Part shown: positions 28,366 to 44,132 of the stretch, in pieces
Layout: each line of letters opens with the position of its first letter
Position numbering within the stretch: position 1 is the stretch's first letter
Source of the DNA: Escherichia coli
Lineage (GTDB): Bacteria > Pseudomonadota > Gammaproteobacteria > Enterobacterales > Enterobacteriaceae
Length of the DNA: 64,000 nucleotides
Assembly: GCF_965641715.1 (NCBI RefSeq)
Contig: NZ_OZ282453.1
Reading direction: 5' to 3' (one strand)
Notes under the pieces: model-generated
The model's input: only the letters and a program-made list of their open reading frames with translations
What the model was told of the DNA's origin: nothing
Database searches by the model: none
Position numbers and translations under genes: made by a program

Positions 28366-28386
28366 TGAATTTGATAATCATTCTCG
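28366..28386. promoter_or_regulatory. Fur box upstream of mntH
   Basis: aatttgataatcattctcg closely matches the Fur consensus GATAATGATAATCATTATC. Confidence 0.6.
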
Positions 28387-28400
28387 TTTGACATAGCATG

Positions 28401-28422
28401 AAACATAGCAAAGGCTATGTTT
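28401..28422. promoter_or_regulatory. MntR operator upstream of mntH
   Basis: Near-perfect palindrome aaacatagcaaaggctatgttt, 13 nt upstream of the mntH ATG. Confidence 0.7.
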
Positions 28423-28425
28423 TAG

Positions 28426-29673
<1,248 letters not shown>

Positions 29674-29700
29674 TTGAATGAGCGTCGCATCTGGCACTAT

Positions 29701-29735
<35 letters not shown>

Positions 29736-29757
29736 GCGTTAAAGAGCCGGTTTGTAT

Positions 29758-29789
29758 GCCTGATAAGACGCGCTAGCGTCGCATCAGGC
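29758..29789. repeat. REP element (second of a BIME-like pair)
   Basis: gcctgataagacgcgctagcgtcgcatcaggc, near-identical to the REP at 6599..6632. Confidence 0.75.
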
Positions 29790-29813
29790 ATTGTGCTCCA
29801 TTGGCGAATGTGT

Positions 29814-30140
29814 TTAATGGCGGTGTCCATGTCCGCGGCCTTTTCCGCGATGATCGTCACGATCGCGCCAGCCTTCACGATAGCCACGCTCATATGCTTT
29901 ACGCTTATCCCAGCCACGATGGTAGCCATTATCATGACGCCACCAGCGGTTTTTACGCCATTCATAATTGCGATGCCAGTAGTCACGGTCGCGCCAGTGA
30001 CCACCGTCCCAGTAATTACCGTAATGATCGCGATCGCCAATTTGTAATTTGATTGATGGCAGTAGGGTGATTTCGCCTGCGTTTGCCGCAAGCGGGGTAA
30101 ATGCCATCAGGGCGGCCGCCAGAAACAGTGACCTGAACAT
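29814..30140 (-). CDS. ypeC: Small secreted His/Arg/Trp-rich protein (108 aa)
   Basis: Signal peptide [21 protein letters not shown] followed by repeated RD/HR/W-rich low-complexity sequence ending GHGHRH. Confidence 0.8.
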
Positions 30141-30254
30141 TGTTATTCTCCTTCACGATCGAAGCCGTCAGCGGCCTGTTAACGCAATATTACGGGGAGG
30201 TAAAGCCCCGTATCATCGCCATAACTCTTAAATCATAAAGGAGAGCATTTTTTG

Positions 30255-31511
30255 CTAAACGTTATCGTGGGGTGGCTGTTGCTTCGGACGATTGACCATC
30301 ATCATCGGCTTACCTGCTAATAACAGCCATGCCGGAAGCATGACGATACAGAGCAGCGGTAGCAATGTGGTATTGGGTACAACGACTGCCGCCATAAAAA
30401 GACTTAACCAGCCATCGCGTGTTACCACCAGCACGATGCCGAGAATAGCGCAGGAAACGGTTATTGCCGCTGGTACGGCGGGAACGTGCTCATGCAGCAT
30501 CAACCCTAATGCCACGCCGACAAACACTGCCGGGAAGATTCGCCCACCGCGAAAGCCACTGGCGGCAGCAACGACCAGGGCGGCAAGTTTAATTACCGCC
30601 AGCAAAAAGTAATCGCTGGTGCTGAAAGCCTGATTTGCCACCATCTGCTGCATCTCATCCAGCCCTTTAAACAGCGAAACTGGTCCACCAATAACCCCCA
30701 GAATACCGAGAATAAATCCGCCAATACCCAGCACGAGCACCGGATTTTTCATTTGATGCATCATCGCGTGCAACCGTGGTAAGCACCATACGGCGACCAT
30801 CCCTGCTGCGATGGCAATCGCCGCGACAATTGCACCGCTGAGAATATCGGTCATTTCCATCTGTCCGTAATGCGCAATGGGCAGTGAAAAATGGGGATGG
30901 AAAAATAATCCGGTAGTAAGTGCACCAGCTGCTGCCGCCATTAACGGCGCAAAAAGACGATCCCATAGCGGAACTTCACTACTGCCATTTAAGGTTTGCG
31001 AAAATATCAACGCCGCCGCAACAGGTGTACCAAACAGCGCGCCGATGGTTCCGGCAGAGGCTAAAATAGTCCACTCCATTCGGTTGACGCGCGGTAACAG
31101 ACGAGCGCCAATGGCAACCGCAAGGGCGATATTGACGGTCATGATCGGATGTTCCGGCCCCAGGCTGACGCCGCCAGCAAGACCGAGAATTAATGCTACG
31201 ATAAGTCCTGGTAGCGCAGAGGGCGGAACCGGTGCGCCGATCAGCGGTTCACAGGCGGGGTCTGGTCCGGCATGACCCTGGCTGAAACGGATAACCAACC
31301 CCACCGCAATACCCGTTAGCGTTAATACACCGATGATCCAGAGGGGTGAATCCTGGGCTATCCCCAGAGTTCCCGGCAGTCGTTGCCAGAGCAAATTCTG
31401 TAATACCGAGGCGATTTTCATCACCACAATCAGAATAAGACTGGACGCAATCCCAATTGCCACGGCGGGGAGCGATAATAACAACATGGTTCTGGCTCGC
31501 GGATGGAGCAT
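30255..31511 (-). CDS. yfeO: ClC-family voltage-gated chloride channel-like membrane protein
   Basis: 418-aa multi-TM ORF with ClC-like GxGIP/GxFxP-type segments. Confidence 0.85.
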
Positions 31512-31714
31512 GTTCTATTCCTTATGCGGGGTCAGATACTTAGTTTGCCCAGCTTGCAAAAAGGCATCGCTGCAATTGGTGCTGAAACGATAAAGTAATT
31601 GTGTGACCCAGATCGATATTTACAGGGAGCCTGCCTTTCCGGCGTTGTTGTTATGCCCCCAGGTATTTACAGTGTGAGAAAGAATTATTTTGACTTTAGC
31701 GGAGCAGTTGAAGA

Positions 31715-32680
31715 ATGACAAAGTATGCATTAGTCGGTGATGTGGGCGGCACCAACGCACGTCTTGCTCTGTGTGATATTGCCAGTGGTGAAATCTCGCA
31801 GGCTAAGACCTATTCAGGGCTTGATTACCCCAGCCTCGAAGCGGTCATTCGCGTTTATCTTGAAGAACATAAGGTCGAGGTGAAAGACGGCTGTATTGCC
31901 ATCGCTTGCCCAATTACCGGTGACTGGGTGGCAATGACCAACCATACCTGGGCGTTCTCAATTGCCGAAATGAAAAAGAATCTCGGTTTTAGCCATCTGG
32001 AAATTATTAACGATTTTACCGCTGTATCGATGGCGATCCCGATGCTGAAAAAAGAGCATCTGATTCAGTTTGGTGGCGCAGAACCGGTAGAAGGTAAGCC
32101 TATTGCGGTTTACGGTGCCGGAACGGGGCTTGGGGTTGCGCATCTGGTCCATGTCGATAAGCGTTGGGTAAGCTTGCCGGGCGAAGGCGGTCACGTTGAT
32201 TTTGCGCCGAATAGTGAAGAAGAGGCCATTATCCTCGAAATATTGCGTGCGGAAATTGGCCATGTTTCGGCGGAACGCGTGCTTTCTGGCCCTGGGCTGG
32301 TGAATTTGTATCGCGCAATTGTGAAAGCTGACAACCGCCTGCCAGAAAATCTCAAGCCAAAAGATATTACCGAACGCGCGCTGGCTGACAGCTGCACCGA
32401 TTGCCGCCGTGCGTTGTCGCTGTTTTGCGTCATTATGGGCCGTTTTGGCGGCAATCTGGCGCTCAATCTCGGGACATTTGGCGGCGTATTTATTGCGGGC
32501 GGTATCGTGCCGCGCTTCCTTGAGTTCTTCAAAGCCTCTGGTTTTCGTGCCGCATTTGAAGATAAAGGGCGCTTTAAAGAATATGTCCATGATATTCCGG
32601 TGTATCTCATCGTCCATGACAATCCGGGTCTTCTCGGTTCCGGTGCACATTTACGCCAGACCTTAGGGCACATTCTGTAA
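31715..32680 (+). CDS. glk: Glucokinase
   Basis: 321-aa [24 protein letters not shown]... (ROK/glucokinase ATP-binding motif). Confidence 0.96.
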
Positions 32681-32898
32681 ATCCTTCCTGTTATATCGGG
32701 AGGTAACTCTCCCGATAATCTTTTAAATCATACAGTTAATTCAATTTTTCTTTGTGTCCCCTCACAAGGCCGACCTGCGTCACACTTCCGTACAGCGGGA
32801 TTAATTCTCCAGTAAATGCATTATTTGTCTGGTAACGGCGATTTGTTTTGCACGTTCATAATTTCACTCGTCAACTATCACTGAACGAGGAATTAACG

Positions 32899-33225
32899 AT
32901 GAGTAAGAAACTGATTGCCTTATGTGCCTGCCCGATGGGCCTGGCTCACACCTTTATGGCCGCTCAGGCGCTGGAAGAAGCAGCGGTAGAAGCCGGTTAT
33001 GAAGTGAAAATTGAAACCCAGGGCGCGGACGGTATCCAGAATCGCCTGACGGCGCAGGATATCGCCGAAGCGACCATCATCATCCACTCCGTGGCAGTTA
33101 CCCCGGAAGATAACGAACGTTTCGAATCACGCGACGTTTATGAAATCACTTTGCAGGACGCAATTAAAAACGCTGCGGGCATCATCAAAGAAATCGAAGA
33201 GATGATTGCCTCTGAACAACAGTAA
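32899..33225 (+). CDS. fryB: PTS fructose-like EIIB component (108 aa)
   Basis: ATG at 32899 gives MSKKLIALCACPMGLAHTFMAA... with the EIIB phospho-cysteine motif CxxG; track ORF from 32848 is an extension. Confidence 0.85.
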   Translation: MSKKLIALCACPMGLAHTFMAAQALEEAAVEAGYEVKIETQGADGIQNRLTAQDIAEATIIIHSVAVTPEDNERFESRDVYEITLQDAIKNAAGIIKEIEEMIASEQQ

Positions 33226-33246
33226 TATTCGACAGGGATAATTGTT

Positions 33247-34494
33247 ATGGCCATTAAAAAACGCAGTGCAACCGTTGTGCCTGGCGCATCCGGTGCGGCA
33301 GCGGCAGTTAAGAATCCGCAGGCCTCTAAAAGCAGCTTCTGGGGTGAACTCCCGCAGCATGTGATGTCAGGGATTTCACGCATGGTGCCGACCTTAATTA
33401 TGGGCGGTGTGATCCTCGCTTTCAGCCAGCTGATTGCTTATAGCTGGCTTAAAATTCCTGCTGAGATCGGCATCATGGATGCTCTTAATAGCGGGAAATT
33501 CTCCGGTTTCGACCTCTCCTTACTGAAATTTGCCTGGTTGTCGCAGTCCTTCGGCGGCGTGTTGTTTGGTTTTGCCATTCCGATGTTTGCTGCTTTTGTG
33601 GCGAACTCTATCGGTGGCAAACTGGCGTTTCCGGCTGGTTTTATCGGCGGCTTGATGTCTACCCAGCCGACGCAACTGCTGAACTTCGATCCCAGCACTA
33701 TGCAATGGGCGACCTCTTCGCCGGTGCCGTCCACCTTCATTGGTGCGCTGATTATTTCTATCGTTGCCGGTTACCTTGTGAAATGGATGAACCAGAAAAT
33801 CCAGTTACCGGATTTCCTGTTAGCGTTCAAAACCACATTTTTGCTACCGATTCTTTCCGCCATTTTTGTCATGCTGGCGATGTACTACGTCATCACCCCA
33901 TTTGGGGGCTGGATCAACGGCGGTATCCGTACTGTGCTGACTGCCGCAGGTGAGAAGGGCGCGCTGATGTACGCAATGGGGATCGCCGCGGCGACAGCAA
34001 TCGACCTTGGTGGCCCGATCAACAAAGCCGCAGGTTTCGTTGCCTTCAGCTTTACCACTGACCACGTATTACCGGTCACCGCTCGTTCTATCGCTATTGT
34101 TATTCCGCCGATTGGTCTGGGTCTGGCGACCATTATCGACCGCCGTTTAACCGGCAAACGTCTGTTCAGTGCTCAGCTTTATCCGCAGGGTAAAACCGCG
34201 ATGTTCCTGGCGTTTATGGGGATTAGTGAGGGTGCGATTCCGTTTGCACTGGAAAGCCCCATCACCGCCATTCCGTCCTATATGGTTGGCGCGATTGTCG
34301 GCTCAACCGCAGCTGTCTGGCTGGGCGCAGTGCAATGGTTCCCGGAGTCCGCTATCTGGGCATGGCCGCTGGTCACTAACCTGGGCGTCTATATGGCGGG
34401 GATCGCGCTGGGGGCAGTCATTACTGCGCTGATGGTGGTGTTCCTGCGTCTGATGATGTTCCGTAAAGGCAAATTGTTAATCGATAGCCTGTAA
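33247..34494 (+). CDS. fryC: PTS fructose-like EIIC permease component
   Basis: 415-aa multi-TM ORF directly downstream of fryB. Confidence 0.85.
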
Positions 34495-34508
34495 GAAGGA
34501 AAATCCAG

Positions 34509-35594
34509 ATGACATTACTCGCTTCGCTGCGTGACTGGCTTAAGGCGCAACAACTGGATGCGGTGCTTCTCTCCTCACGGCAGAACAAACAGCCGCATCT
34601 GGGGATCTCCACCGGATCAGGCTATGTGCTGATTAGCCGTGAAAGTGCGCACATTCTGGTGGACTCGCGCTATTACGCGGATGTAGAAGCCCGCACGCAA
34701 GGTTACCAGCTGCATTTGCTTGACGCGACGCACACGCTTACAACCATCGCCAGGCAAATCATTGCCGATGAGCAGTTGCAAACGCTCGGTTTTGAAGGCC
34801 AGCAGGTGAGTTGGGAAACCGCGCACCGCTGGCAGTCTGAACTCAATGCGAAACTGGTAAGCGCCACGCCGGATGTGCTGCGGCAAATCAAAACGCCAGA
34901 GGAGGTGGAGAAAATCCGTCTTGCCTGTGGGATTGCCGATCGCGGTGCAGAGCATATTCGCCGCTTTATTCAGGCGGGGATGAGCGAGCGCGAGATAGCC
35001 GCTGAACTGGAGTGGTTTATGCGCCAGCAGGGCGCAGAAAAAACCTCTTTTGACACCATTGTCGCCAGTGGCTGGCGTGGGGCGCTGCCGCACGGCAAAG
35101 CCAGCGACAAGATTGTTGCAGCGGGAGAGTTTGTCACTCTCGATTTCGGTGCGCTGTATCAGGGCTACTGCTCTGATATGACGCGCACCTTGCTGGTGAA
35201 TGGCGAAGGGGTGAGCGCCGAATCTCATCCGCTGTTTAACGTCTATCAGATTGTTTTGCAGGCACAGCTCGCAGCAATCTCTGCAATTCGCCCCGGCGTG
35301 CGCTGCCAGCAGGTTGACGACGCCGCGCGTCGGGTGATTACCGAGGCAGGATTTGGCGACTATTTTGGTCACAACACCGGTCATGCTATCGGCATTGAAG
35401 TTCATGAAGATCCGCGTTTTTCACCGCGGGACACCACGACGCTACAGCCAGGCATGTTACTGACCGTGGAGCCGGGGATTTATTTGCCAGGGCAAGGGGG
35501 CGTGCGCATCGAGGATGTTGTGCTGGTCACCCCGCAAGGCGCAGAAGTGCTCTACGCCATGCCGAAAACAGTGTTGCTCACGGGAGAGGCATAA
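34509..35594 (+). CDS. ypdF: Xaa-Pro aminopeptidase (M24 family)
   Basis: 361-aa ORF with M24 metal-binding signature ([13 protein letters not shown]). Confidence 0.85.
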
Positions 35595-36631
35595 TGGATT
35601 TATCGCTATTGAAAGCGTTGAGCGAGGCAGATGCGATCGCCTCCTCGGAACAGGAAGTGCGGCAGATCCTGCTGGAAGAAGCGGATCGCCTGCAAAAAGA
35701 AGTGCGATTTGATGGGCTGGGATCGGTGCTGATCCGCCTGAATGAATCGACAGGTCCGAAGGTGATGATCTGTGCGCATATGGACGAAGTGGGATTTATG
35801 GTGCGCAGCATCTCCCGCGAAGGGGCGATTGATGTGCTGCCGGTTGGCAATGTACGCATGGCTGCCCGCCAGCTGCAGCCGGTGCGCATCACCACCCGTG
35901 AAGAGTGCAAAATTCCAGGCCTGCTTGACGGCGACCGGCAGGGGAATGACGTCAGCGCCATGCGCGTGGATATTGGCGCGCGCTCGTATGACGAAGTGAT
36001 GCAGGCGGGAATTCGTCCAGGCGATCGCGTCACGTTCGATACCACTTTTCAGGTTCTCCCCCACCAGCGAGTGATGGGGAAAGCCTTTGATGACCGCCTC
36101 GGTTGCTATCTGCTGGTGACGTTACTACGTGAGCTGCACGACGCCGAACTGCCTGCGGAAGTGTGGCTGGTGGCCAGTTCCAGCGAAGAGGTGGGATTAC
36201 GCGGCGGGCAAACTGCCACCCGCGCGGTGTCGCCGGACGTCGCCATTGTCCTTGATACCGCCTGCTGGGCGAAAAACTTTGATTATGGCGCGGCTAACCA
36301 TCGCCAGATTGGTAACGGCCCGATGCTGGTGTTAAGCGACAAGTCACTGATTGCGCCGCCAAAACTCACCGCCTGGATCGAAACCGTGGCGGCAGAAATT
36401 GGCGTGCCGTTACAGGCGGATATGTTCAGTAACGGCGGCACTGACGGTGGAGCGGTGCACTTAACCGGTACCGGCGTACCCACAGTGGTGATGGGGCCTG
36501 CCACCCGCCACGGACATTGCGCCGCGTCGATTGCCGATTGCCGCGACATTTTGCAGATGGAGCAACTTTTATCTGCCCTTATTCAACGTCTTACGCGTGA
36601 GACGGTTGTTCAACTGACGGATTTCAGATGA
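35594..36631 (+). CDS. ypdE: M42-family aminopeptidase
   Basis: 345-aa ORF; start overlaps the ypdF stop by 1 nt. Confidence 0.85.
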
Positions 36632-36655
36632 TCTCCTGATTAACCCGGAGCGGTT

Positions 36656-39151
36656 ATGTTAACGATTCAATTTCTCTGTCCTTTGCCTAACGGTCTACAT
36701 GCTCGTCCGGCGTGGGAACTTAAAGAACAGTGCAGCCAGTGGCAAAGCGAAATCACTTTTATTAACCATCGCCAGAACGCAAAGGCCGATGCCAAAAGCT
36801 CGCTGGCGCTGATTGGCACCGGCACCCTATTTAATGACAGTTGCAGCCTGAACATTAGCGGCAGCGATGAAGAGCAGGCGCGGCGCGTGCTGGAAGAGTA
36901 CATCCAGGTGCGCTTTATCGACAGCGACAGCGTTCAGCCTACGCAGGCAGAACTGACGGCGCATCCGCTGCCGCGTTCATTAAGCCGCCTTAACCCGGAT
37001 TTACTATACGGCAATGTGCTGGCAAGCGGCGTCGGCGTGGGTACGCTGACCCTGTTACAAAGCGACAGCCTCGACAGTTATCGGGCAATCCCCGCCAGTG
37101 CGCAAGATTCCACCCGGCTGGAGCACAGCCTGGCAACGCTTGCCGAGCAACTGAACCAGCAATTGCGTGAGCGTGACGGCGAAAGCAAAACTATCCTCAG
37201 CGCCCATTTGTCGCTGATTCAGGATGATGAATTTGCAGGCAATATCAGTCGCCTGATGACAGAACAGCATCAGGGGCTGGGGGCGGCGATCATCAGCAAT
37301 ATGGAGCAGGTTTGCGCCAAACTTTCTGCTTCTACCAGCGATTATCTGCGCGAACGTGTTAGCGACATTCGCGATATTAGCGAACAGTTGCTGCATATTA
37401 CCTGGCCGGAACTGAAGCCGCGCAACAATCTGGTGCTGGAAAAACCGACTATTCTGGTGGCCGAGGATTTAACCCCAAGCCAGTTTTTAAGCCTGGAGTT
37501 AAAAAATCTTGCGGGCATGATTCTGGAGAAAACCGGGCGCACCTCGCATACCCTGATTCTGGCCCGCGCCTCGGCGATCCCGGTACTGAGCGGCCTGCCG
37601 CTGGATGCGATTGCCCGTTATGCCGGGCAACCTGCAGTGCTTGACGCCCAGTGCGGCGTGCTGGCGATTAACCCGAATGACGCGGTTAGCGGTTATTATC
37701 AGGTCGCGCAGACGCTGGCGGATAAACGCCAAAAACAACAGGCGCAGGCTGCCGCGCAGCTGGCTTATTCCCGTGATAACAAGCGTATTGATATCGCGGC
37801 GAATATTGGCACCGCTCTGGAAGCGCCTGGCGCGTTTGCCAACGGCGCGGAAGGCGTCGGGCTGTTCCGTACCGAAATGCTCTATATGGATCGCGACAGC
37901 GCGCCGGACGAGCAGGAGCAATTTGAAGCCTACCAGCAGGTGCTACTGGCAGCGGGCGACAAGCCGATTATCTTCCGCACAATGGACATCGGAGGCGATA
38001 AAAGCATTCCTTATCTGAATATTCCCCAGGAAGAGAACCCGTTCCTCGGCTATCGCGCGGTACGTATTTACCCGGAATTTGCTGGCCTGTTCCGCACTCA
38101 ACTGCGGGCCATTTTGCGCGCCGCCAGTTTCGGCAACGCCCAGTTGATGATCCCGATGGTTCACAGCCTCGATCAGATCTTATGGGTGAAGGGCGAGATC
38201 CAAAAAGCGATCGTTGAGCTTAAGCGCGATGGCCTGCGTCATGCAGAGACGATTACGCTGGGTATCATGGTGGAAGTGCCGTCGGTGTGCTACATCATCG
38301 ATCACTTCTGCGATGAGGTCGATTTCTTCAGTATCGGCTCCAACGATATGACCCAGTATCTGTATGCGGTCGATCGTAATAACCCGCGCGTATCGCCGCT
38401 ATATAACCCGATTACGCCATCGTTCCTGCGCATGTTGCAGCAAATAGTTACCACTGCGCATCAGCGGGGCAAATGGGTAGGCATTTGCGGTGAACTGGGC
38501 GGTGAAAGTCGTTATCTGCCGCTACTGCTTGGGCTGGGACTGGACGAGTTAAGCATGAGTAGTCCGCGCATTCCGGCGGTGAAAAGCCAGCTTCGTCAAC
38601 TGGATAGCGAGGCGTGTCGGGAACTGGCGCGTCAGGCATGTGAATGCCGCAGCGCGCAGGAAATTGAAGCGTTACTCACCGCCTTTACGCCGGAAGAAGA
38701 CGTTCGCCCATTACTGGCGCTGGAGAATATCTTTGTTGATCAGTCCTTTAGCAATAAAGAGCAGGCGATCCAGTTCCTGTGCGGTAACCTCGGCGTTAAC
38801 GGGCGCACTGAACATCCGTTCGAGCTGGAAGAGGATGTCTGGCAGCGGGAAGAGATTGTCACCACTGGCGTTGGTTTTGGCGTGGCGATCCCGCACACCA
38901 AATCTCAGTGGATCCGTCATTCCAGTATCAGCATTGCCCGGCTGGCGAAACCGGTTGACTGGCAGTCAGAAATGGGCGAAGTCGAACTGGTGATCATGCT
39001 GACGCTGGGTGCTAACGAAGGGATGAATCATGTGAAAGTCTTCTCGCAGCTGGCGCGTAAACTGGTGAATAAAAACTTCCGCCAGTCGTTGTTTGCCGCG
39101 CAAGATGCACAAAGTATCCTGACGCTGCTGGAAACAGAATTAACCTTCTGA
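36656..39151 (+). CDS. fryA: PTS multiphosphoryl transfer protein (HPr-like, EI-like and EIIA-like domains fused)
   Basis: 831-aa ORF; N-terminal HPr-like segment (LPNGLHARPA), central EI homology (GGRTSH, GSNDMTQY), C-terminal EIIA-Fru-like domain. Confidence 0.9.
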   Translation: MLTIQFLCPLPNGLHARPAWELKEQCSQWQSEITFINHRQNAKADAKSSLALIGTGTLFNDSCSLNISGSDEEQARRVLEEYIQVRFIDSDSVQPTQAELTAHPLPRSLSRLNPDLLYGNVLASGVGVGTLTLLQSDSLDSYRAIPASAQDSTRLEHSLATLAEQLNQQLRERDGESKTILSAHLSLIQDDEFAGNISRLMTEQHQGLGAAIISNMEQVCAKLSASTSDYLRERVSDIRDISEQLLHITWPELKPRNNLVLEKPTILVAEDLTPSQFLSLELKNLAGMILEKTGRTSHTLILARASAIPVLSGLPLDAIARYAGQPAVLDAQCGVLAINPNDAVSGYYQVAQTLADKRQKQQAQAAAQLAYSRDNKRIDIAANIGTALEAPGAFANGAEGVGLFRTEMLYMDRDSAPDEQEQFEAYQQVLLAAGDKPIIFRTMDIGGDKSIPYLNIPQEENPFLGYRAVRIYPEFAGLFRTQLRAILRAASFGNAQLMIPMVHSLDQILWVKGEIQKAIVELKRDGLRHAETITLGIMVEVPSVCYIIDHFCDEVDFFSIGSNDMTQYLYAVDRNNPRVSPLYNPITPSFLRMLQQIVTTAHQRGKWVGICGELGGESRYLPLLLGLGLDELSMSSPRIPAVKSQLRQLDSEACRELARQACECRSAQEIEALLTAFTPEEDVRPLLALENIFVDQSFSNKEQAIQFLCGNLGVNGRTEHPFELEEDVWQREEIVTTGVGFGVAIPHTKSQWIRHSSISIARLAKPVDWQSEMGEVELVIMLTLGANEGMNHVKVFSQLARKLVNKNFRQSLFAAQDAQSILTLLETELTF

Positions 39152-39153
39152 CG

Positions 39154-40011
39154 TTAGCCCTGAAAACGGGCGCTGTACTCTCCCGGCGTCAGACCAAACT
39201 GACGCCGGAAAACGCGACAAAAATAGTCGCTATCCGGAAAACCGCAACGCTGTGCCACTTCATGAATTGACAGATGATATTTCTGCAAAATCATCCTCGC
39301 CTTCGCCATTCGCACCCAACGCACATACTCGATAAAACGCATCGTTCCATGCTGAGCAAACAGTTTTGACAGATGATTGGGCGTGATATTAAAAAACTGC
39401 GCCACGCTCTCGCGGGTGAGCGGCTGGGCATAATTATCCTGAACCCAGTTACAAATGCTGTGATAGAGAAAATCGCCGCGCGGCTGCGAATTGCCCGGCG
39501 GCATATTCACCACGTTACGGCAAAGATGCAGCAAACTTAACACCAGCGGCTGAATGATATTTTGCTCCAGCGGCGAACGGCTAAGATGGGTGAGGGCGGT
39601 AAGCATCGCTTCACCTTCACCGCGTTGCAGGCTGGGAAGCTGGATCTGGCGAGCAGGATGCAACAACGACGTGGTGCGGCTATCGTAAAACGATAACCCA
39701 AGCCAGGTCGGAGCGAACACCAGGCTTAACAGCATCACCGGTTTGTTGTTGACCGGTAAATTAGCCGCGCGCGCCGGAATAAACAGCATTTCTCCTTCCA
39801 CCAAACGTTGCTGCTTTGCTTCCAGCAGATTGCCGTATTCGCCGCGCAGCACGATATCCAGACGGGGAAAATCAATACATAAACTGCCCACCGGCAACGA
39901 GGCAGGCTGGCTGGCAAACCAGACGCGCCCCAGTAGTTGCGGGTTAAGCACCAGGCCGCTGAACAGATCGGCGAAAAATTGTTGATCGGCGGGCAAGCCT
40001 GGTGCTTTCAT
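39154..40011 (-). CDS. ypdC: AraC-family transcriptional regulator
   Basis: 285-aa ORF with C-terminal AraC-type HTH; stop 2 nt after the fryA stop (convergent). Confidence 0.85.
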   Translation of the reverse strand: MKAPGLPADQQFFADLFSGLVLNPQLLGRVWFASQPASLPVGSLCIDFPRLDIVLRGEYGNLLEAKQQRLVEGEMLFIPARAANLPVNNKPVMLLSLVFAPTWLGLSFYDSRTTSLLHPARQIQLPSLQRGEGEAMLTALTHLSRSPLEQNIIQPLVLSLLHLCRNVVNMPPGNSQPRGDFLYHSICNWVQDNYAQPLTRESVAQFFNITPNHLSKLFAQHGTMRFIEYVRWVRMAKARMILQKYHLSIHEVAQRCGFPDSDYFCRVFRRQFGLTPGEYSARFQG

Positions 40012-40023
40012 GAAAGTTCCCGA

Positions 40024-40758
40024 TTAAAGATGCATTAACTGGCGAAATTCTTTAACTTTGCTGCGGCTGACCGGCACTTCAAAATCCAGATCTTTCAGCC
40101 GCAGAATGTAGGTGTTATTAAACCACGGTTCGATCTCGCGGATTTTGTTCAGATTGACACAAAATGAGCGATGGCAGCGGAAAAAATGCGACGGCGGCAG
40201 TTTGCTGCAAAATTCGGTAATGTTCATCGGCATTACATAGGATTCACGCCGCGTATAAACAAAGGTCATTTTCTCGTGCGCTTCGGCGTAATAGATATCG
40301 TTAATGGGGGTGACGATTATTCGCTCATCTTTCACCAGATTAATGGTGTCATTCTCACGCGTTACCGTCGCGGCAGGCGTACTGCTGGTCTGCTGTTGCT
40401 GCCAGGCCGCTTCCAGTTTTTGCAGCATCCCGGTAATGCGTGACTCCTGATACGGTTTGAGAATGTAGTCAAACGCCTCAAGTTCAAACGCTTCTACCGC
40501 ATGTTCTTTCCACGCGGTGATAAACACAATAAACGGTTTATGGGCGAACTGGCTGATGTTTTGTGCCAGCAACACACCATCCAGCGACGGAATATTGATA
40601 TCCAGAAAAATGGCGTCGACGCGGTTATGCTGCAAAAACTTCAACACGTCCAGACCGTCGTCAAAGGTGCCGACAATCTCCATCTGGCTGTGCTCTTTAA
40701 TTAGCCAGCTCAGTTCCTGTTGTGCCAGGAATTCGTCTTCAACAATGATGACTTTCAC
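40024..40758 (-). CDS. ypdB: LytTR-family response regulator (244 aa, GTG start)
   Basis: GTG at 40758 gives (M)KVIIVEDEFLAQQELSWLIKEH...; receiver domain plus LytTR DNA-binding domain; track ORF uses a TTG 6 codons upstream. Confidence 0.85.
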   Translation of the reverse strand: MKVIIVEDEFLAQQELSWLIKEHSQMEIVGTFDDGLDVLKFLQHNRVDAIFLDINIPSLDGVLLAQNISQFAHKPFIVFITAWKEHAVEAFELEAFDYILKPYQESRITGMLQKLEAAWQQQQTSSTPAATVTRENDTINLVKDERIIVTPINDIYYAEAHEKMTFVYTRRESYVMPMNITEFCSKLPPSHFFRCHRSFCVNLNKIREIEPWFNNTYILRLKDLDFEVPVSRSKVKEFRQLMHL

Positions 40759-40772
40759 AATATCACTCCAGC

Positions 40773-42470
40773 TCAAAGCAATAACGTAGCCTGTGAGGCG
40801 ACTGGGGTGCGTTGGTTAGGAATGTAAAACGCAATTTCCGTTCCTGGTTCCAGGCGGCGGATATGCAGCCCCTCGCCATACAATAACTTCACGCGATGAT
40901 GGACATTCAGCAGGCCAATTTTATTGCCCGGCATTTCATTCGCTTCGACCCGCTCAATCACCTTTGGATCGATGCCGTGCCCGGTATCCCGCACCGCAAT
41001 GCGTACCCGATTGCCGCACTCTGCAACGCTGATGGTGACAACGCCTTTACCTTTGCAAGGCTGGATACCGTGGACAATGGCATTCTCCACCAACGGCTGG
41101 ATCAGCAGGCTGGGAATGCAGCAATTCACCTCTTCATCAATATCATAGATAACCGTCAGCTTGTCGCCAAAGCGGGCCTGCTCAATGGCAATATAGTCTT
41201 TAATTTGATACAGCTCTTTTTTGATATCGATTTGCTCATCGTCTTTTAATTCAATGTTATAGCGCAGATAACGCGACAGATTAAAGATCAGCTGGCGAGC
41301 GGTATCCGGATTCAGACGGATCGACGATGAAATAGCGTTCAGAGCGTTAAACAGAAAATGGGGATTAATTTTGCTTTGCAGGGCGCGAAGCTCTGCCTTA
41401 TTTGCCATTTCACGTAGCTGCTCGGCGCGTGAAACCTCCAGTTGCGTGGAGATGATTTGCGACAGACCAACCGCCATTTCCTGTAATGACGAGGTTATCT
41501 GATGCGCGTGGCAGTAGTAAATTTTCAGCGTTCCGGTCACAACGCCTTTCTCCCACAATGGGATCACCAGCATGGAATGAATCTCTGGTGTGCGGTGGGC
41601 TTCATCATTGTTTTTAATGATGATTTTTCCGTAATTCATCGCCTGACGGGTAGTCGGGCTAATGAAGTCATCGCCGTTCTGATAGTTATGTTCACCCACG
41701 CCAACATAGGCCAGCACATGATCGGTATTAGTAATCGCCACCGCATCGGCGTGAATGTCATCGCGAATAATTTCACAAACTTTGCGTAATGACTCGCTAT
41801 TGACATGGCGAAACAGCGGCAGCGTTTTGTTGGCGATATCCAGCGCCAACTTGGCCTGCCGCGCGGCGCTGGCCTCTTTTTCGCCCTCAACGCTTTGCAC
41901 CAGAAGCACAATAAAGCCGATACAGACGCTGCCGAGGATCATTGGAATCCCGATTTTAGAGACGATATCGATCCCCAACGCGGTAGTTGGTGCCCAGACA
42001 ATCACCAGAATCATGGTCAACGTTTCACACAACATGCCGCCGAGAATACCGACGCGCCAGCGCTGTGCTTTGGGGATTTTCAGGTTGATCCAGCCCGATA
42101 TACAACCCGCCAGAATGCTGGTGATAAAGCAGGGGATCGCCGTCACGCCGCCGATATCAATTAAATAACGATGAATACCCGCAATCACGCCGGTAATGAT
42201 GCCCACCCACGGGCCAAACAGAATCCCGCCGGACATCACCGCGATAATACGTACGTTCACCAGCGAGCCTTCTACGGGAACGCCGGACCAGGTGCTGAAC
42301 AGAGCGAACAGCGAGAAAATGGCGGTAACGGCGAGCAACTCTCTCGGTGAGTGTGCCGACTTGTGCAACAGTTCGCGAAACAGGCGGATACGGATGAGAA
42401 AGAACAGGCAGATAAGCATTAACGCTGCCCGATCGAAGACCGCCAGCAGCATGTTGAATATTTCGTGCAC
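40773..42470 (-). CDS. ypdA: LytS-type sensor histidine kinase (565 aa, GTG start)
   Basis: N-terminal multi-TM 5TM-Lyt domain, GAF-like region, HisKA_3/HATPase_c (RDTGHGI); immediately upstream of ypdB. Confidence 0.88.
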
Positions 42471-42846
42471 GGGTGACTCTGAATAAGGATTAAACCTCTA
42501 TGATAGGTAACCTGAAGGCTGATGACCAGCAGGCCGTTTTTGAGGAAAAACCACAATTTTAAAAGGGGATTGATAGATAAATGGTGTATTAGCAATGCAT
42601 CTCTTGATAATGCACTTCTGGTTAGTAAATTTATTGAAATTATTATGTTAATAAAATGAGTGGTAATTTTCTTGTTAGCGCAGATAATTTTCCTGTTTTT
42701 AAAGCAGAGTTCCTCATTTAACGTCATTAATAAAAATGTTCTAAAACGCTGGACAGACAGAAATTAATCAGGCTATTTTCAAAACAGCCACCATCGTGGC
42801 AGCGTCGCTCGGACGGTCCGGGCGCTAACGTTAATCTGAGGAAATT

Positions 42847-44085
42847 ATGGCTGACACTCGCCCTGAACGTCGCTTTACGCGCATTGATCGTCTCCCGCCC
42901 TATGTTTTTAACATTACCGCTGAACTGAAAATGGCTGCGCGTCGGCGCGGCGAAGATATTATCGATTTCAGTATGGGTAACCCGGACGGTGCGACTCCGC
43001 CGCATATCGTCGAAAAATTATGTACTGTGGCCCAGCGCCCGGACACGCATGGTTACTCCACTTCACGCGGCATTCCGCGGCTACGTCGCGCCATTTCCCG
43101 TTGGTATCAGGATCGCTACGACGTTGAAATCGACCCGGAATCAGAAGCCATCGTCACTATTGGTTCGAAAGAGGGCCTGGCGCATCTGATGCTGGCGACA
43201 CTGGATCACGGTGACACAGTGCTGGTGCCGAATCCAAGTTACCCCATTCATATTTACGGCGCGGTGATTGCCGGGGCTCAGGTACGCTCAGTGCCGCTGG
43301 TGGAAGGTGTCGATTTCTTCAACGAACTGGAGCGCGCCATTCGTGAAAGTTATCCGAAACCGAAGATGATGATCCTCGGCTTCCCGTCGAACCCAACCGC
43401 GCAATGCGTGGAACTGGAGTTCTTCGAAAAGGTTGTGGCGCTGGCGAAACGCTACGATGTGCTGGTGGTCCACGACCTGGCCTATGCGGACATCGTCTAC
43501 GATGGCTGGAAAGCGCCGTCAATCATGCAGGTGCCAGGTGCACGCGATGTGGCGGTCGAGTTCTTTACGCTGTCGAAAAGCTACAACATGGCGGGCTGGC
43601 GTATCGGCTTTATGGTTGGCAACAAAACGCTGGTCAGTGCGCTGGCACGTATTAAAAGCTATCACGATTACGGCACCTTTACGCCGTTGCAGGTGGCGGC
43701 GATTGCGGCGCTGGAGGGCGATCAACAGTGTGTGCGCGACATTGCCGAACAGTACAAACGCCGCCGTGATGTATTGGTTAAAGGGCTGCATGAAGCGGGC
43801 TGGATGGTCGAAATGCCGAAGGCTTCGATGTATGTCTGGGCGAAAATACCGGAACCGTATGCTGCCATGGGCTCGCTGGAATTTGCCAAGAAATTGCTTA
43901 ACGAAGCGAAGGTCTGTGTCTCTCCGGGGATTGGCTTTGGCGACTATGGTGATACGCATGTGCGCTTTGCACTGATTGAAAACCGCGACCGTATTCGTCA
44001 GGCGATTCGTGGGATTAAAGCGTTGTTCCGTGCCGACGGTTTACTACCCGCCAGCAGCAAACATATTCACGAAAACGCGGAATAA
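42847..44085 (+). CDS. alaC: Glutamate-pyruvate aminotransferase (PLP-dependent)
   Basis: 412-aa [26 protein letters not shown]...; class I aminotransferase with PLP lysine ([10 protein letters not shown]). Confidence 0.93.
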
Positions 44086-44104
44086 ACACCGACCTCAGAA
44101 ATGC

Positions 44105-44132
44105 AAACAGGAGCCTGATGGCTCCTGTTTTT
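44105..44132. terminator. Bidirectional rho-independent terminator between alaC and ypdK
   Basis: Hairpin aaacaggagcc-tgat-ggctcctgttt followed by ttt. Confidence 0.7.

What the first reader, a model, noticed from the sequence alone, without database searches (positions are those of the whole stretch)
32899..39151. Cryptic fry PTS operon couples fructose-like PTS components to two aminopeptidases
fryB (EIIB), fryC (EIIC), ypdF (M24 Xaa-Pro aminopeptidase), ypdE (M42 aminopeptidase) and fryA (HPr-EI-EIIA fusion) are tightly packed on one strand, with a 1-nt ypdF/ypdE overlap. Peptidases embedded in a sugar-PTS operon are unusual, and as far as I know the transported substrate is unknown. The combination suggests uptake of a glycosylated or amino-acid-conjugated compound.
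Basis: partly seen in the sequence, partly recalled or inferred. Interest (0 to 1): 0.4.

Follow-up and report, generated by a model that had tools for sequence, protein, structure and literature searches.

The report
Sugar-uptake operon with built-in peptidases
This is the long-annotated E. coli fryBC-ypdFE-fryA operon; comparison with about 70 related loci shows its sugar transporter and peptidases are a conserved unit that probably imports a mannose-type sugar attached to an amino acid or short peptide, which turns an orphan transporter into a testable problem.

Summary
fryB, fryC, ypdF, ypdE and fryA lie on the + strand at 32899-39151. The gaps are 21, 14, -1 (TAATG) and 24 nt, and FryA has the domain order HPr-EI-EIIA.

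The locus is already annotated. It is present in 5424 of 5426 complete E. coli genomes, and structures of YpdF and a YpdE orthologue are solved. No paper I could reach names a substrate.

What I add by comparison:
- **Discrete transporter clade.** FryC-type EIIC occurs in Enterobacterales and Bacillota, and the next relatives are only about 30% identical.
- **Fixed downstream partner.** In all 70 evaluable loci the gene after the EIIC is either a YpdF-type M24 peptidase (60) or an MngB-like GH38 alpha-mannosidase (10). The two kinds are interleaved on the EIIC tree.
- **Extra partners in Bacillota.** Peptidase-type loci there add a PatB C-S lyase, and eight have an adjacent mannose-6-phosphate isomerase.
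- **Regulator.** The AraC-type gene ypdC travels with the operon, whereas ypdAB does not. A conserved direct-repeat operator precedes fryB.
- **Selection.** All genes are under purifying selection with intact catalytic residues.

Best reading: a self-contained PTS for a mannose-type glyco-amino-acid or glycopeptide. The coupling is well supported; the substrate is inferred. The locus is known, the mechanism untested: moderate interest.

The parts
32694..32717 (+). glk terminator-like hairpin. It marks the upstream boundary of the fry unit.
   Evidence: Stem of 10 pairs followed by a T-rich tail, directly after the glk stop codon.
32771..32789 (+). Conserved upstream block CGACCTGCGTCACACTTCC. 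TCACAC (32780-32785) is nearly invariant. I propose it as a CRP-type half-site about 90 nt upstream of the predicted transcription start (inference).
   Evidence: Phylogenetic footprint in 19 fryB upstream regions from different Enterobacterales genera, including loci in unrelated genomic neighbourhoods.
32797..32836 (+). Candidate YpdC (AraC-type) operator. It holds the direct repeat TCCAGTAA (32808-32815) and TCTGGTAA (32828-32835), 20 nt apart, and abuts the -35 position.
   Evidence: It is the most conserved non-coding block in the 19-genus alignment. The 46-nt stretch 32795-32840 is 100% identical in 5403 of 5420 E. coli records and single-copy per genome, whereas only 7 records reach 99% over the whole operon.
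32857..32862 (+). Predicted -10 element CATAAT (consensus CCATAAT across genera). There is no recognisable -35, which suggests an activator-dependent promoter.
   Evidence: Nearly invariant column block in the upstream alignment. The generic sigma-70 scan finds no full promoter here.
32899..33225 (+). fryB, PTS EIIB (108 aa). Phospho-accepting Cys11 lies in the motif CPMG.
   Evidence: Pfam PTS_IIB, 71 bits. Cys11 is invariant in 74 of 74 relatives. Identity to the Bacillota counterparts is 67-80%.
33247..34494 (+). fryC, PTS EIIC permease (415 aa). It is the founding member of a discrete 'Fry-type' EIIC clade.
   Evidence: Pfam PTS_EIIC. The clade has 100/100 bootstrap support; members are 50-99% identical and the next relatives about 30%.
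34509..35594 (+). ypdF, M24B metallo-aminopeptidase of the Xaa-Pro type (361 aa).
   Evidence: Pfam Creatinase_N + Peptidase_M24. NCBIfam equivalog NF007310, 815 bits against a cutoff of 393. PDB 5cnx is 'Aminopeptidase YpdF'. Metal ligands D212, D223, H292, E321 and E335 are invariant in 60 of 60.
35594..36631 (+). ypdE, M42 metallo-aminopeptidase (345 aa). Its start overlaps the ypdF stop by 1 nt.
   Evidence: Pfam Peptidase_M42, 286 bits. NCBIfam equivalog NF007421, 681 bits against 412. PDB 1ylo is the Shigella orthologue. H62, D64, D167, E198, E199, D221 and H308 are invariant in 45 of 45.
36656..39151 (+). fryA, a fused HPr-EI-EIIA(Fru) phosphoryl-transfer protein (831 aa). It gives the system its own PEP-driven phosphorelay.
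   Evidence: Five Pfam domains in that order. TIGR01417, 505 bits against 342, and TIGR00848 EIIA, 142 bits against 103.5. Expected phospho-sites are present: H15 (GLHARP), H298 (GRTSHT), C611 (CGE) and H747 (AIPH).
39154..40011 (-). ypdC, an AraC-family regulator convergent with fryA, with 2 nt between the stop codons. I propose it as the cognate regulator of the fry operon.
   Evidence: Pfam HTH_18/HTH_AraC. An orthologue accompanies the fry genes in 31 of 34 evaluable Enterobacterales loci, usually 2-7 nt from fryA. This holds in genomes that lack ypdAB and in unrelated neighbourhoods.

Best explanation
The five genes, together with the convergent ypdC, form one inducible catabolic module for a sugar that arrives attached to an amino acid or short peptide.

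**Proposed mechanism.**
1. FryA takes phosphate from PEP and passes it internally from EI His298 to HPr His15 to EIIA His747, and then to FryB Cys11.
2. FryC imports the conjugate, and its sugar moiety is phosphorylated during uptake.
3. In the cytoplasm YpdF, an Xaa-Pro-type M24B peptidase, cuts at proline, and YpdE, a broad M42 aminopeptidase, trims the remaining residues. This leaves a phospho-glycosyl amino acid plus free amino acids.
4. The sugar is most likely mannose, giving mannose-6-phosphate, which ManA feeds into glycolysis.
5. In Bacillota relatives a PatB-type PLP beta-lyase in the same operon could release the phospho-sugar from a Ser, Thr or Cys side chain by beta-elimination. 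E. coli lacks that gene in cis and would need a trans enzyme such as MalY, MetC or MngB.
6. Expression probably depends on YpdC bound to the direct-repeat operator at 32797-32836, possibly with CRP.

**Shown here:** gene content and order, domain and active-site integrity, purifying selection, the cross-phylum linkage of EIIC with M24 or GH38, the PatB and PMI partners, co-inheritance of ypdC, and the conserved upstream footprint.

**Inferred:** that the peptidases act on the imported cargo (about 0.8); that the sugar is mannose-type (about 0.5); that the cargo is an O-mannosyl-Ser/Thr-Pro-type peptide (about 0.2); that YpdC is the activator (about 0.6).
For: **The module is conserved.**
- The same five-gene order is found in S. 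enterica diarizonae and, in an unrelated neighbourhood, in Buttiauxella.
- It also occurs in an Enterobacterales MAG and, as a PRD-regulator-IIA-IIB-IIC-M24(-M42)-PatB operon, in Bacillota.
- FryB is 67-80% and FryC 53-73% identical across these distant loci.
- A scan of one genome per species found 72 FryC-type loci at 50% identity or more, 38 in Enterobacterales and 34 in Bacillota. The next relatives are about 30% identical, and the clade has 100/100 bootstrap support.
- In all 70 loci with readable downstream sequence, the EIIC is followed by M24 (60) or by GH38 (10).

**The M24 peptidase travels with the transporter.**
- The smallest clade holding 22 Fry-linked M24 sequences has 25 leaves out of 92.
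- Two of the three unknowns inside that clade turned out to be Fry-module genes when I looked up their contigs.
- Two controls outside the clade sit in the housekeeping aroQ-M24-efp context.

**The sugar looks like mannose.**
- The GH38 proteins match only the MngB (mannosylglycerate hydrolase) model, at 616-928 bits over their full length.
- GH38-linked and peptidase-linked EIICs are interleaved: each group alone is monophyletic in 0 of 100 replicates, and GH38 group A joins the M20/PatB group in 93 of 100.
- The only other recurrent neighbour in Bacillota loci is class I mannose-6-phosphate isomerase, in 8 peptidase-type loci. It scores above the TIGR00218 cutoff.
- The C. difficile 630 gene list places pmi (CD2491) beside the PTS CD2486-88 and the Xaa-Pro peptidase CD2485 (PMC3510511).

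**The PLP partner is a beta-lyase.** It scores 348-357 bits against the TIGR04350 cutoff of 340, and its best PDB matches are PatB (6qp3) and cysteine-S-conjugate beta-lyases.

**The E. coli copy is functional.**
- dN/dS is 0.011-0.107 within Escherichia, against 0.056 for glk.
- All catalytic residues are invariant.

**Regulation.**
- ypdC is present in 31 of 34 loci.
- The upstream footprint is conserved across genera.
- The candidate operator is 100% identical in 5403 of 5420 E. coli records.

**Physiology from the literature.**
- A UTI89 ypdE mutant is outcompeted in mouse bladder, with a competitive index of 0.30 (PMC8767336).
- An in-frame fryA deletion improves growth on LB plates after prolonged LB culture (PMC5364489).
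Against: - No experiment here or in the accessible literature shows transport of any substrate by FryBC.
- The E. coli operon has no enzyme that would break a sugar-amino-acid bond. It lacks PatB and GH38 in cis, and the nearby alaC is only 22% identical to the PatB partners. The pathway as proposed is therefore incomplete in the window itself.
- Sugar identity is inferred from relatives that are 50-68% identical, and EIIC specificity can change at that distance.
- PMI is adjacent in only 8 of 24 Bacillota peptidase-type loci.
- The NJ trees are simple distance trees. Strict monophyly of the Fry-linked M24 sequences fails (1 of 100), because one non-PTS sequence (P0145) falls inside the clade.
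- Canonical aminopeptidases need a free alpha-amino group and have not been shown to accept phospho-glycosylated residues.
- The CRP and YpdC sites are predictions from conservation only.
- A 43-carbon-source transcriptome atlas does not mention fry at all (PMC13343008), so common substrates apparently do not stand out as inducers.
Confidence: 0.5

Rival explanations
1. The system salvages glycated (Amadori or Heyns) peptides. The Fru-family PTS takes up fructosyl peptides formed by non-enzymatic glycation, and YpdF and YpdE release the fructosyl amino acid, by analogy with the frl, gfr and fra systems.
For: - FryB and FryC belong to the Fru family and come close to the fructose-specific models (TIGR00829 92 bits against 77; TIGR01427 157.5 against 157.55).
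- Peptidases would be needed to process glycated peptides.
- The operon is a core gene set of gut Enterobacterales and gut Clostridia.
Against: - No deglycase, SIS-domain protein or fructosamine kinase gene recurs in any of about 70 loci.
- A PatB-type beta-lyase needs a free alpha-amine and a beta-substituent, which does not fit an N-alpha-fructosyl amino acid.
- The recurrent partners are GH38 alpha-mannosidase and mannose-6-phosphate isomerase, not fructose enzymes.
Confidence: 0.12
2. The cargo is an aminoacyl or peptidyl amino-sugar, or a cysteine S-conjugate of a glycoside. An example is a bacillithiol-like Cys-GlcN-hydroxy acid or its S-conjugates. The aminopeptidases cleave the amide between amino acid and sugar, and PatB destroys the released cysteine conjugate.
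For: - Aminopeptidases readily cleave aminoacyl amides (established knowledge, from memory).
- The M20 partner of the Clostridium-type loci is a Sapep/PepV dipeptidase. It also resembles the Cys-Gly-3M3SH dipeptidase, which works with a PatB C-S lyase in Staphylococcus.
- PatB relatives in the PDB are cysteine-S-conjugate beta-lyases.
- An alpha-glycosyl hydroxy acid resembles mannosylglycerate, the substrate of the related MngAB system.
Against: - No glycosidase or deacetylase is present to finish such a pathway in the peptidase-type loci.
- Adjacency of PMI and the GH38 alternative point to mannose, not glucosamine.
- An Xaa-Pro-type peptidase is the one invariant partner, and this model does not explain it.
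Confidence: 0.12
3. This is a conventional hexose PTS (fructose or mannose) with co-regulated but mechanistically independent peptidases. The operon merely co-expresses carbon uptake with general peptide or proline turnover.
For: - YpdE and YpdF act on ordinary peptides in vitro (Zheng et al. 2005, J Bacteriol 187:3671, cited in PMC3511314; the details are from memory).
- The closest non-PTS relatives of YpdF are housekeeping Xaa-Pro peptidases next to efp.
- In C. difficile the Xaa-Pro peptidase genes are discussed as suppliers of proline for Stickland metabolism (PMC3510511).
Against: - Gene order EIIC-M24 is kept in 60 loci across two phyla despite changes of regulator, EIIA/EI arrangement and genomic position.
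- The peptidases are replaced by a phospho-glycoside hydrolase, not by nothing, in the other 10 loci.
- The Fry-linked M24 lineage has its own invariant residues (K27, K197, N289) that are absent from the housekeeping enzymes.
- A free hexose would need no downstream hydrolase.
Confidence: 0.08
4. The role is mainly regulatory. FryA acts as a paralogous EI/HPr that modulates other PTS or signalling pathways, for example linked to the adjacent pyruvate-sensing YpdAB system, and FryBC transports little.
For: - FryA carries a complete EI-HPr-EIIA relay.
- The fry locus abuts ypdABC in Escherichia and Citrobacter.
- A fryA in-frame deletion changes fitness in LB without any known substrate (PMC5364489).
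Against: - ypdAB is missing from most loci that keep the fry module.
- Bacillota versions have no FryA fusion at all, yet keep EIIB, EIIC and the peptidases.
- FryC is among the most strongly constrained genes of the module, with dN/dS of 0.026-0.046.
Confidence: 0.05

Closest known systems
E. coli MngA/MngB, the 2-O-alpha-mannosyl-D-glycerate PTS with its GH38 mannosylglycerate hydrolase
   Same: - Both use a Fru-family PTS.
- FryB and FryC hit the MngA model (85 and 102 bits).
- Ten loci of the Fry EIIC clade pair the transporter with an MngB-like GH38.
- The logic is the same: import a glycoside, phosphorylate the sugar, then split off the aglycone in the cytoplasm.
   Different: - FryC is only about 29% related to the MngA EIIC domain and forms a separate clade.
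- EIIA, EIIB and EIIC are not fused into one protein, and E. coli has its own EI-HPr-EIIA protein.
- In the window two metallopeptidases stand where the glycosidase would be.
- The GH38 partners score below the MngB equivalog cutoff (616-928 against 1138).
E. coli frvABXR and sgcXBCQAER operons
   Same: - Both are orphan PTS operons that each contain an M42-family gene, frvX or sgcX.
- YpdE is 35% identical to FrvX and 32% to SgcX.
- Their substrates are also unknown (PMC13343008, for sgc).
   Different: - They have no M24 peptidase and no EI-HPr fusion.
- The EIIC lineages differ: FrvB is 27% identical to FryC, and sgc belongs to a different PTS family.
- The regulators differ.
- I did not test how widely those associations are conserved.
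Amadori-product systems: E. coli frlABCDR, Salmonella gfrABCDEF and fra
   Same: They are dedicated uptake and catabolism systems for a sugar covalently bound to an amino acid, found in gut Enterobacteriaceae (established knowledge, from memory).
   Different: - Those systems rely on deglycases or kinases with SIS or PfkB domains. None recurs near Fry-type loci.
- They contain no peptidases.
- gfr uses a mannose-family PTS, not a Fru-family one.
Staphylococcus hominis Cys-Gly-3M3SH pathway (dipeptidase plus PatB C-S lyase)
   Same: It has the same two-step logic as the Clostridium-type Fry loci: a Sapep/PepV-type M20 dipeptidase frees a beta-substituted amino acid, which a PatB-family PLP lyase then splits by beta-elimination.
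   Different: - Uptake there is by a peptide transporter, not a PTS, and no sugar is involved (from memory).
- The window itself has neither the M20 nor the PatB gene.
The araBAD-type activator-dependent promoter (CRP site plus two direct-repeat AraC half-sites overlapping -35)
   Same: The fryB upstream footprint has a distal TCACA-containing block, two direct repeats about two helical turns apart that end at the -35 position, a good -10 and no -35. An AraC-family gene is always nearby.
   Different: This is purely a sequence inference. The repeat period is 20 nt, not 21. The CRP-like block has only one good half-site. Binding was not tested.
Housekeeping Xaa-Pro aminopeptidases of the PapA/YqhT type, encoded next to efp
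   Same: They are the closest non-PTS relatives of YpdF, at about 42-46% identity, with the same Creatinase_N + M24 architecture.
   Different: - They are not PTS-linked.
- They lack the Fry-lineage-specific residues K27, K197 and N289.

Membership tests
PTS Fru family, EIIB component | PTS_IIB fold with an active-site cysteine in a CPxG loop | tested here: met
   Pfam PF02302 scores 71 bits against a cutoff of 23.6. Cys11 in CACPMG is invariant in 74 of 74 relatives.
PTS Fru family, EIIB component | Equivalog-level match to a named fructose-like EIIB (NF007783) | tested here: not met
   The score is 105 bits against a cutoff of 135. The subfamily-domain model TIGR00829 is met, at 92 bits against 77.
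PTS Fru family, EIIC component | PTS_EIIC membrane domain | tested here: met
   Pfam PF02378 scores 52.6 bits against a cutoff of 30.7 and covers residues 41-346.
Fructose-specific PTS EIIC (TIGR01427) | Score at or above the curated cutoff, and transport of fructose | tested here: inconclusive
   The score is 157.5 bits against a cutoff of 157.55, just below. Fructose transport cannot be tested with these tools. Genomic partners point to mannose instead.
PTS Enzyme I / HPr / EIIA(Fru) multiphosphoryl transfer protein | All three modules present with their phospho-accepting histidines and the EI catalytic cysteine | tested here: met
   Pfam finds HPr, the three EI domains and EIIA_2 in that order. 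TIGR01417 scores 505 bits against 342 and TIGR00848 142 bits against 103.5. H15, H298, C611 and H747 sit in the canonical motifs.
Peptidase M24B (Xaa-Pro peptidases) | Creatinase_N plus pita-bread domain with five metal ligands (Asp, Asp, His, Glu, Glu) | tested here: met
   Pfam PF01321 and PF00557 both match. D212, D223, H292, E321 and E335 are invariant in 60 of 60. The protein is about 97% identical to PDB 5cnx 'Aminopeptidase YpdF'.
Peptidase M24B (Xaa-Pro peptidases) | Cleavage specificity for Xaa-Pro bonds | not testable with these tools
   This rests on Zheng et al. 2005 (cited in PMC3511314; the paper is not held; details from memory). It is consistent with the nearest relatives being annotated proline dipeptidases or aminopeptidase P.
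Peptidase M42 (TET-type aminopeptidases) | M42 domain with His, Asp, Glu-Glu, Asp and His metal and catalytic residues | tested here: met
   Pfam PF05343 scores 286 bits. The equivalog NF007421 scores 681 bits against 412. H62, D64, D167, E198, E199, D221 and H308 are invariant in 45 of 45. PDB 1ylo is the orthologue.
AraC/XylS transcription factors (ypdC) | C-terminal double helix-turn-helix domain | tested here: met
   Pfam HTH_18 scores 74 bits and HTH_AraC 49 bits.
AraC/XylS transcription factors (ypdC) | Binds direct-repeat half-sites at its target promoter and responds to an effector | not testable with these tools
   There is only a conserved direct repeat at 32808/32828 and co-inheritance with the operon.
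MngAB-type mannoside PTS system | A GH38 phospho-alpha-mannoside hydrolase encoded with the transporter | tested here: not met
   There is no GH38 gene in the window operon. One is present in 10 related loci of the same EIIC clade. The window may therefore work on a related sugar, but it is not a member of this system.
Amadori-product (frl/gfr/fra-type) catabolic systems | A deglycase or fructosamine kinase (SIS or PfkB type) encoded with the transporter | tested here: not met
   No such gene is in the window operon. None is among the recurrent neighbours of about 70 related loci.
PatB/MalY C-S lyase partner of the extended Fry module | A TIGR04350-class PLP lyase adjacent to the peptidases | tested here: not met
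   It is absent from the window. The nearby alaC (42847-44085) is only 21-23% identical to the PatB partners. PatB is present in 23 of 24 Bacillota peptidase-type loci and in one Enterobacterales MAG.

The most novel reading that the evidence does not exclude
The Fry family is a phosphotransferase system for glycopeptides. It would import short O-mannosylated Ser/Thr-Pro-type peptides, for example from fungal or actinobacterial mannoproteins or host glycoproteins, and phosphorylate the mannose. An Xaa-Pro peptidase and a second aminopeptidase would trim the peptide. In the full Bacillota version a PatB-type PLP enzyme would then free mannose-6-phosphate by beta-elimination instead of a glycosidase. 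That would be a non-hydrolytic deglycosylation route feeding ManA. E. coli would carry a reduced version with its own EI/HPr and an AraC switch.
Probability: 0.2. Interest if true: 0.75.

Novelty: new variant of a known kind. Interest (0 to 1): 0.45.

Why it matters
fryABC is one of the few E. coli K-12 PTS systems that still has no substrate, even though it is core to the species and the structures of YpdF and a YpdE orthologue are solved.

The comparison narrows an open-ended screen to a short list of candidates: alpha-mannosyl amino acids and peptides, with mannose-6-phosphate as the product. It also names a regulator (YpdC) and an operator that can be used to switch the operon on. The same module in C. 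difficile (CD2484-CD2491) is expressed during infection.

If the substrate is a glycopeptide, this would extend the PTS from sugars to sugar-peptide conjugates. It would also show a beta-eliminative route for removing a sugar from a peptide, and it would bear on how gut bacteria use the leftovers of glycoprotein digestion.

If the system turns out to be an ordinary hexose PTS, the locus is of routine interest only.

Tried and rejected
- **alaC as a remnant of the PLP partner.** I asked whether the aminotransferase gene alaC (42847-44085), which follows ypdC directly in Salmonella, is what remains of the PLP partner seen elsewhere. I rejected this: it is only 21-23% identical to the PatB-type partners, which are C-S lyases.
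- **Generic promoter, terminator and RNA scans.** Promoter and terminator scans of 32500-43000 gave nothing above the shuffled expectation. An Rfam search of 30000-45000 gave no hit.
- **Literature searches.** Searches with fryA, fryB and fryC were swamped by the author name 'Fry'. Targeted searches found no substrate. The primary enzymology paper (PMC1112042) is not held.
- **Second copies of the operator.** I looked for further copies of the candidate operator in E. coli genomes to define a regulon. It is single-copy.
- **ypdAB as part of the module.** Rejected, because they occur only in Escherichia, Citrobacter and Pseudocitrobacter loci.
- **Muropeptide substrate.** A MurNAc PTS/MupG/MurQ cluster lies next to one locus (L012). 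The adjacency does not recur.
- **Strict monophyly of Fry-linked M24.** It fails because one housekeeping-context sequence (P0145) nests inside the clade.
- **The fry region as a hypervariable island.** Rejected. The flanks show the same identity profile of about 99% at best to E. coli.

Full report
**1. The observation**

The window carries five tightly packed + strand ORFs exactly where stated: fryB 32899-33225, fryC 33247-34494, ypdF 34509-35594, ypdE 35594-36631 and fryA 36656-39151.

Pfam assigns PTS_IIB, PTS_EIIC, Creatinase_N + Peptidase_M24 and Peptidase_M42 to the first four. For FryA it gives the order HPr, EI (N-terminal, mobile and PEP-binding domains), then EIIA_2.

The junction sequences show gaps of 21, 14 and 24 nt and the single-base TAATG overlap between ypdF and ypdE.

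Megablast finds the block in 5424 of 5426 complete E. coli genomes, annotated with the same gene names. The window as a whole is a slightly divergent Escherichia lineage. The best identity is about 99% for the operon and for both flanks, so the fry region is not unusually variable.

**2. State of knowledge**

- PDB holds YpdF itself (5cnx) and the Shigella orthologue of YpdE (1ylo).
- The enzymology paper is Zheng et al. [quoted passage not shown] It is cited in PMC3511314 but is not held. From memory it reports YpdE as a broad aminopeptidase and YpdF as an Xaa-Pro/Met aminopeptidase.
- A 2023 review still lists fryB and fryC only as 'fructose-like' (PMC10305011).
- A 2026 atlas of 43 carbon sources does not mention fry (PMC13343008).
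- A UTI89 ypdE mutant is outcompeted in mouse bladder, with a competitive index of 0.30 (PMC8767336).

**3. The peptidases belong to the transporter**

I looked at where relatives of YpdF and FryC are encoded.

- In S. enterica diarizonae the same five genes sit between glk and an AraC-type gene, with no ypdAB.
- In Buttiauxella the five genes plus the AraC gene lie in an unrelated neighbourhood.
- An exhaustive HMMER search shows a gap between the enterobacterial YpdF clade (60% identity or more) and everything else (46% or less).
- The three best distant representatives are all PTS-linked. One is an Enterobacterales MAG with AraC-IIB-IIC-M24-M42-FryA-PLP enzyme. The other two are Bacillota-type operons, PRD-regulator-IIA-IIB-IIC-M24-M42-PLP enzyme and M20-PRD-regulator-IIA-IIB-IIC-M24-PLP enzyme.
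- Across these loci FryB is 67-80% and FryC 53-73% identical to the window proteins, much more than the peptidases at 43-66%.

A scan of one genome per prokaryotic species with a FryC alignment returned 72 loci at 50-99% identity, 38 in Enterobacterales and 34 in Bacillota. The Bacillota include Clostridioides difficile, Hungatella, Ruminococcaceae, Lachnospiraceae, Pelosinus, Tissierellia and Breznakia. The next relatives are only about 30% identical.

I annotated every locus by BLAST against the module proteins. All 36 evaluable Enterobacterales loci have M24 after the EIIC, with M42 and, wherever the contig extends far enough, FryA after that. Of the 34 Bacillota loci, 24 have M24, together with either M42 or an M20 dipeptidase.

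The M24 proteins form essentially one lineage. The smallest clade that contains 22 Fry-linked M24 sequences has 25 of the 92 leaves. I predicted that the three unknowns inside it would be module genes. Two were:

- L091 has a FryC C-terminus followed by M24, M42 and PatB.
- L092 has a LacI-type regulator followed by M20, IIB, IIC and M24.

The third was not (L094). Two controls from outside the clade sit in the housekeeping aroQ-M24-efp context.

**4. What replaces the peptidases, and what else travels with them**

The 10 Bacillota loci without M24 all have an 845-895 aa GH38 alpha-mannosidase directly after the EIIC. Its only NCBIfam match is the MngB mannosylglycerate hydrolase model, aligned over the full length at 616-928 bits, below the equivalog cutoff of 1138.

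On a neighbour-joining tree of 74 EIICs:
- the Fry clade has 100/100 support;
- GH38-linked members are never monophyletic (0/100);
- peptidase-linked members are never monophyletic (0/100);
- one GH38 group joins the M20/PatB group in 93/100 replicates.

So the two kinds of downstream enzyme have been swapped within one transporter lineage.

The PLP enzyme of the peptidase-type loci is a PatB-family C-S lyase. It scores 348-357 bits against the TIGR04350 cutoff of 340, and its best PDB matches are PatB (6qp3) and cysteine-S-conjugate beta-lyases.

I clustered all other neighbouring ORFs. Apart from GH38, only one recurrent family appears in Bacillota: a class I mannose-6-phosphate isomerase. 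It occurs in eight peptidase-type loci from several lineages and scores above the TIGR00218 cutoff. In four loci it lies immediately downstream of PatB on the same strand. In the C. difficile group it lies divergently upstream.

The C. difficile 630 gene list agrees gene for gene: CD2485 is an Xaa-Pro peptidase, CD2486-88 a 'fructose-like' PTS and CD2491 pmi (PMC3510511). That PTS is reported as up-regulated early in mouse infection (bioRxiv 10.1101/598045).

No deglycase, kinase or isomerase other than PMI recurs.

**5. The E. coli version**

Enterobacterales differ from Bacillota in three ways.
- The separate EIIA is replaced by the HPr-EI-EIIA fusion FryA.
- The PRD-type regulator is replaced by an AraC-type one.
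- PatB has been lost, except in one MAG.

The AraC gene ypdC accompanies the operon in 31 of 34 evaluable loci. It is nearly always convergent and 2-7 nt from fryA. ypdAB occurs only in Escherichia, Citrobacter and Pseudocitrobacter.

An alignment of fryB upstream regions from 19 genera, including loci in different neighbourhoods, shows three conserved blocks:
- CGACCTGCGTCACACTTCC at 32771-32789;
- a direct repeat, TCCAGTAA at 32808 and TCTGGTAA at 32828, within 32797-32836;
- CATAAT at 32857-32862, with no -35 element.

This arrangement resembles an AraC-activated promoter assisted by CRP. That reading is an inference. The 46-nt repeat region is 100% identical in 5403 of 5420 E. coli records and single-copy, although only 7 records reach 99% over the whole operon.

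All fry genes are under purifying selection. dN/dS is 0.011-0.107 within Escherichia and up to 0.17 for ypdF between genera, compared with 0.03-0.06 for glk. Every catalytic or phospho-accepting residue I checked is present, and those of FryB, YpdF and YpdE are invariant across the family.

The fry-ypdC genes are somewhat richer in G+C (51-58%, against 49.5% for the window and 47% for ypdB).

**6. Mechanism**

The best-supported reading is a self-contained PTS that imports a glycoside whose aglycone is an amino acid or short peptide.
- The cargo is phosphorylated on the sugar during uptake.
- It is then dismantled by an Xaa-Pro peptidase and a second aminopeptidase.
- The GH38 alternative and the PMI neighbour point to mannose, with mannose-6-phosphate as the product.
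- In the Bacillota version, a dipeptidase or aminopeptidase together with a PatB beta-lyase would suffice to free a phospho-sugar from a Ser, Thr or Cys side chain.
- E. coli would need a trans-acting enzyme for that last step, which is a real gap in the model.

A weak additional hint is that Fry-linked M24 proteins carry lineage-specific invariant residues K27, K197 and N289 next to active-site motifs. This would suit an anionic ligand, but I could not place them in the structure.

My confidence is about 0.8 for peptidase-cargo coupling, 0.5 for a mannose-type sugar, 0.2 for O-mannosyl-Ser/Thr-Pro peptides specifically, and 0.6 for YpdC as the regulator.

**7. Rivals**

| Rival | Main point against it |
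|---|---|
| Glycated (Amadori) peptides | No deglycase; the PatB and PMI/GH38 partners do not fit |
| Aminoacyl amino-sugars or Cys S-conjugates | Would explain the Sapep-type M20 plus PatB pairing, but not PMI, GH38 or the invariant Xaa-Pro peptidase |
| Ordinary hexose PTS with unrelated peptidases | Cross-phylum gene order is conserved, and the peptidases are replaced by a glycosidase, not by nothing |
| Mainly regulatory role for FryA | Bacillota versions lack FryA altogether, and FryC is strongly constrained |

**8. Comparison and verdict**

The nearest characterised system is MngAB (mannosylglycerate PTS plus GH38). The window fails its defining feature because it has no GH38, so it may work on a related sugar but is not a member.

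The frv and sgc operons show that M42 genes in PTS operons are a recurrent E. coli theme.

The locus itself is already known. What may be new is the comparative picture: a discrete Fry clade, the GH38/peptidase alternation, the PatB and PMI partners, and YpdC with its operator. I found none of this in the searchable literature, but I cannot exclude that it has been published.

I rate it a new variant of a known kind (PTS catabolic operons) with moderate interest.

Noticed in passing
window 39154-44085, compared with L002/L003 and L004: ypdA and ypdB lie between ypdC and alaC only in Escherichia, Citrobacter and Pseudocitrobacter. In S. enterica diarizonae and arizonae, ypdC is followed directly by alaC. 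In Enterobacter-type genomes the fry-ypdC block is somewhere else entirely. In E. coli ypdC starts 12 nt after ypdB, so its transcription may have become coupled to the pyruvate-sensing YpdAB operon.
   Followed up: partly
window 42847-44085 (alaC): A class I/II aminotransferase gene lies close to the fry module, and a PLP enzyme of the same Pfam family is part of the module in other taxa. They are not orthologous: identity is 21-23%, and the others are PatB C-S lyases. The resemblance is coincidental.
   Followed up: yes
window 24000-30000: This stretch contains an IS4-like IS421 transposase next to nupC, mntH and pdeA. Only 456 of 5426 E. coli genomes match 80% or more of it in one piece, so the insertion is lineage-specific.
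   Followed up: no
L005 (K-12 4088107-4092823) and L006 (K-12 4526106-4531651): All three M42-family paralogues of E. coli K-12 (YpdE, FrvX, SgcX) are encoded inside orphan PTS operons. YpdE is 35% identical to FrvX and 32% to SgcX. Whether frvX and sgcX show the same cross-phylum linkage was not examined.
   Followed up: partly
L086 (Mesorhizobium jarvisii assembly, 406-nt contig) and L038 ('Chryseobacterium sp. 18061' assembly): A 406-nt contig that is 99% identical to E. coli fryC sits in a Mesorhizobium assembly. A complete Enterobacter-type fry locus sits in an assembly labelled Chryseobacterium. Both look like contamination or mislabelling of public assemblies.
   Followed up: no
L012 11556-16010: In one Clostridiaceae MAG the Fry-type operon is followed directly by a MurNAc-type PTS EIIBC, MupG, a SIS (MurQ-like) protein and an RpiR regulator. 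The adjacency does not recur in other loci.
   Followed up: partly
L017, L025, and proteins P0030-P0037: There are signs of local decay in some lineages. The M42 gene is split in Escherichia sp. MOD1-EC7003, and fryA is split in Citrobacter amalonaticus S646. YpdF is shortened in E. albertii (320 aa) and Shigella dysenteriae (304 aa). The operon is under selection in general but is dispensable in some host-restricted lineages.
   Followed up: no
window 39149-39156: fryA and ypdC converge with only 2 nt between their stop codons and no terminator between them. In Buttiauxella and Hafnia they overlap. Transcripts of the operon and of its presumed regulator must therefore run into each other, which could give antisense or collision-type feedback.
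   Followed up: no
window 34509-35594 (YpdF residues K27, T35, K197, N289): Four positions are invariant or nearly so in Fry-linked M24 peptidases and rare in housekeeping relatives. Two of them are lysines, and they lie next to the PHG and HxxGH active-site motifs. This could reflect binding of a phosphorylated ligand. Their position in the structure was not checked.
   Followed up: partly
window 32899-40011: G+C content is 54-58% in fryC, ypdF, ypdE, fryA and ypdC. That is higher than the window average (49.5%), glk (51%) and ypdB (47%). It is consistent with the six-gene block having a separate origin from its neighbours.
   Followed up: no
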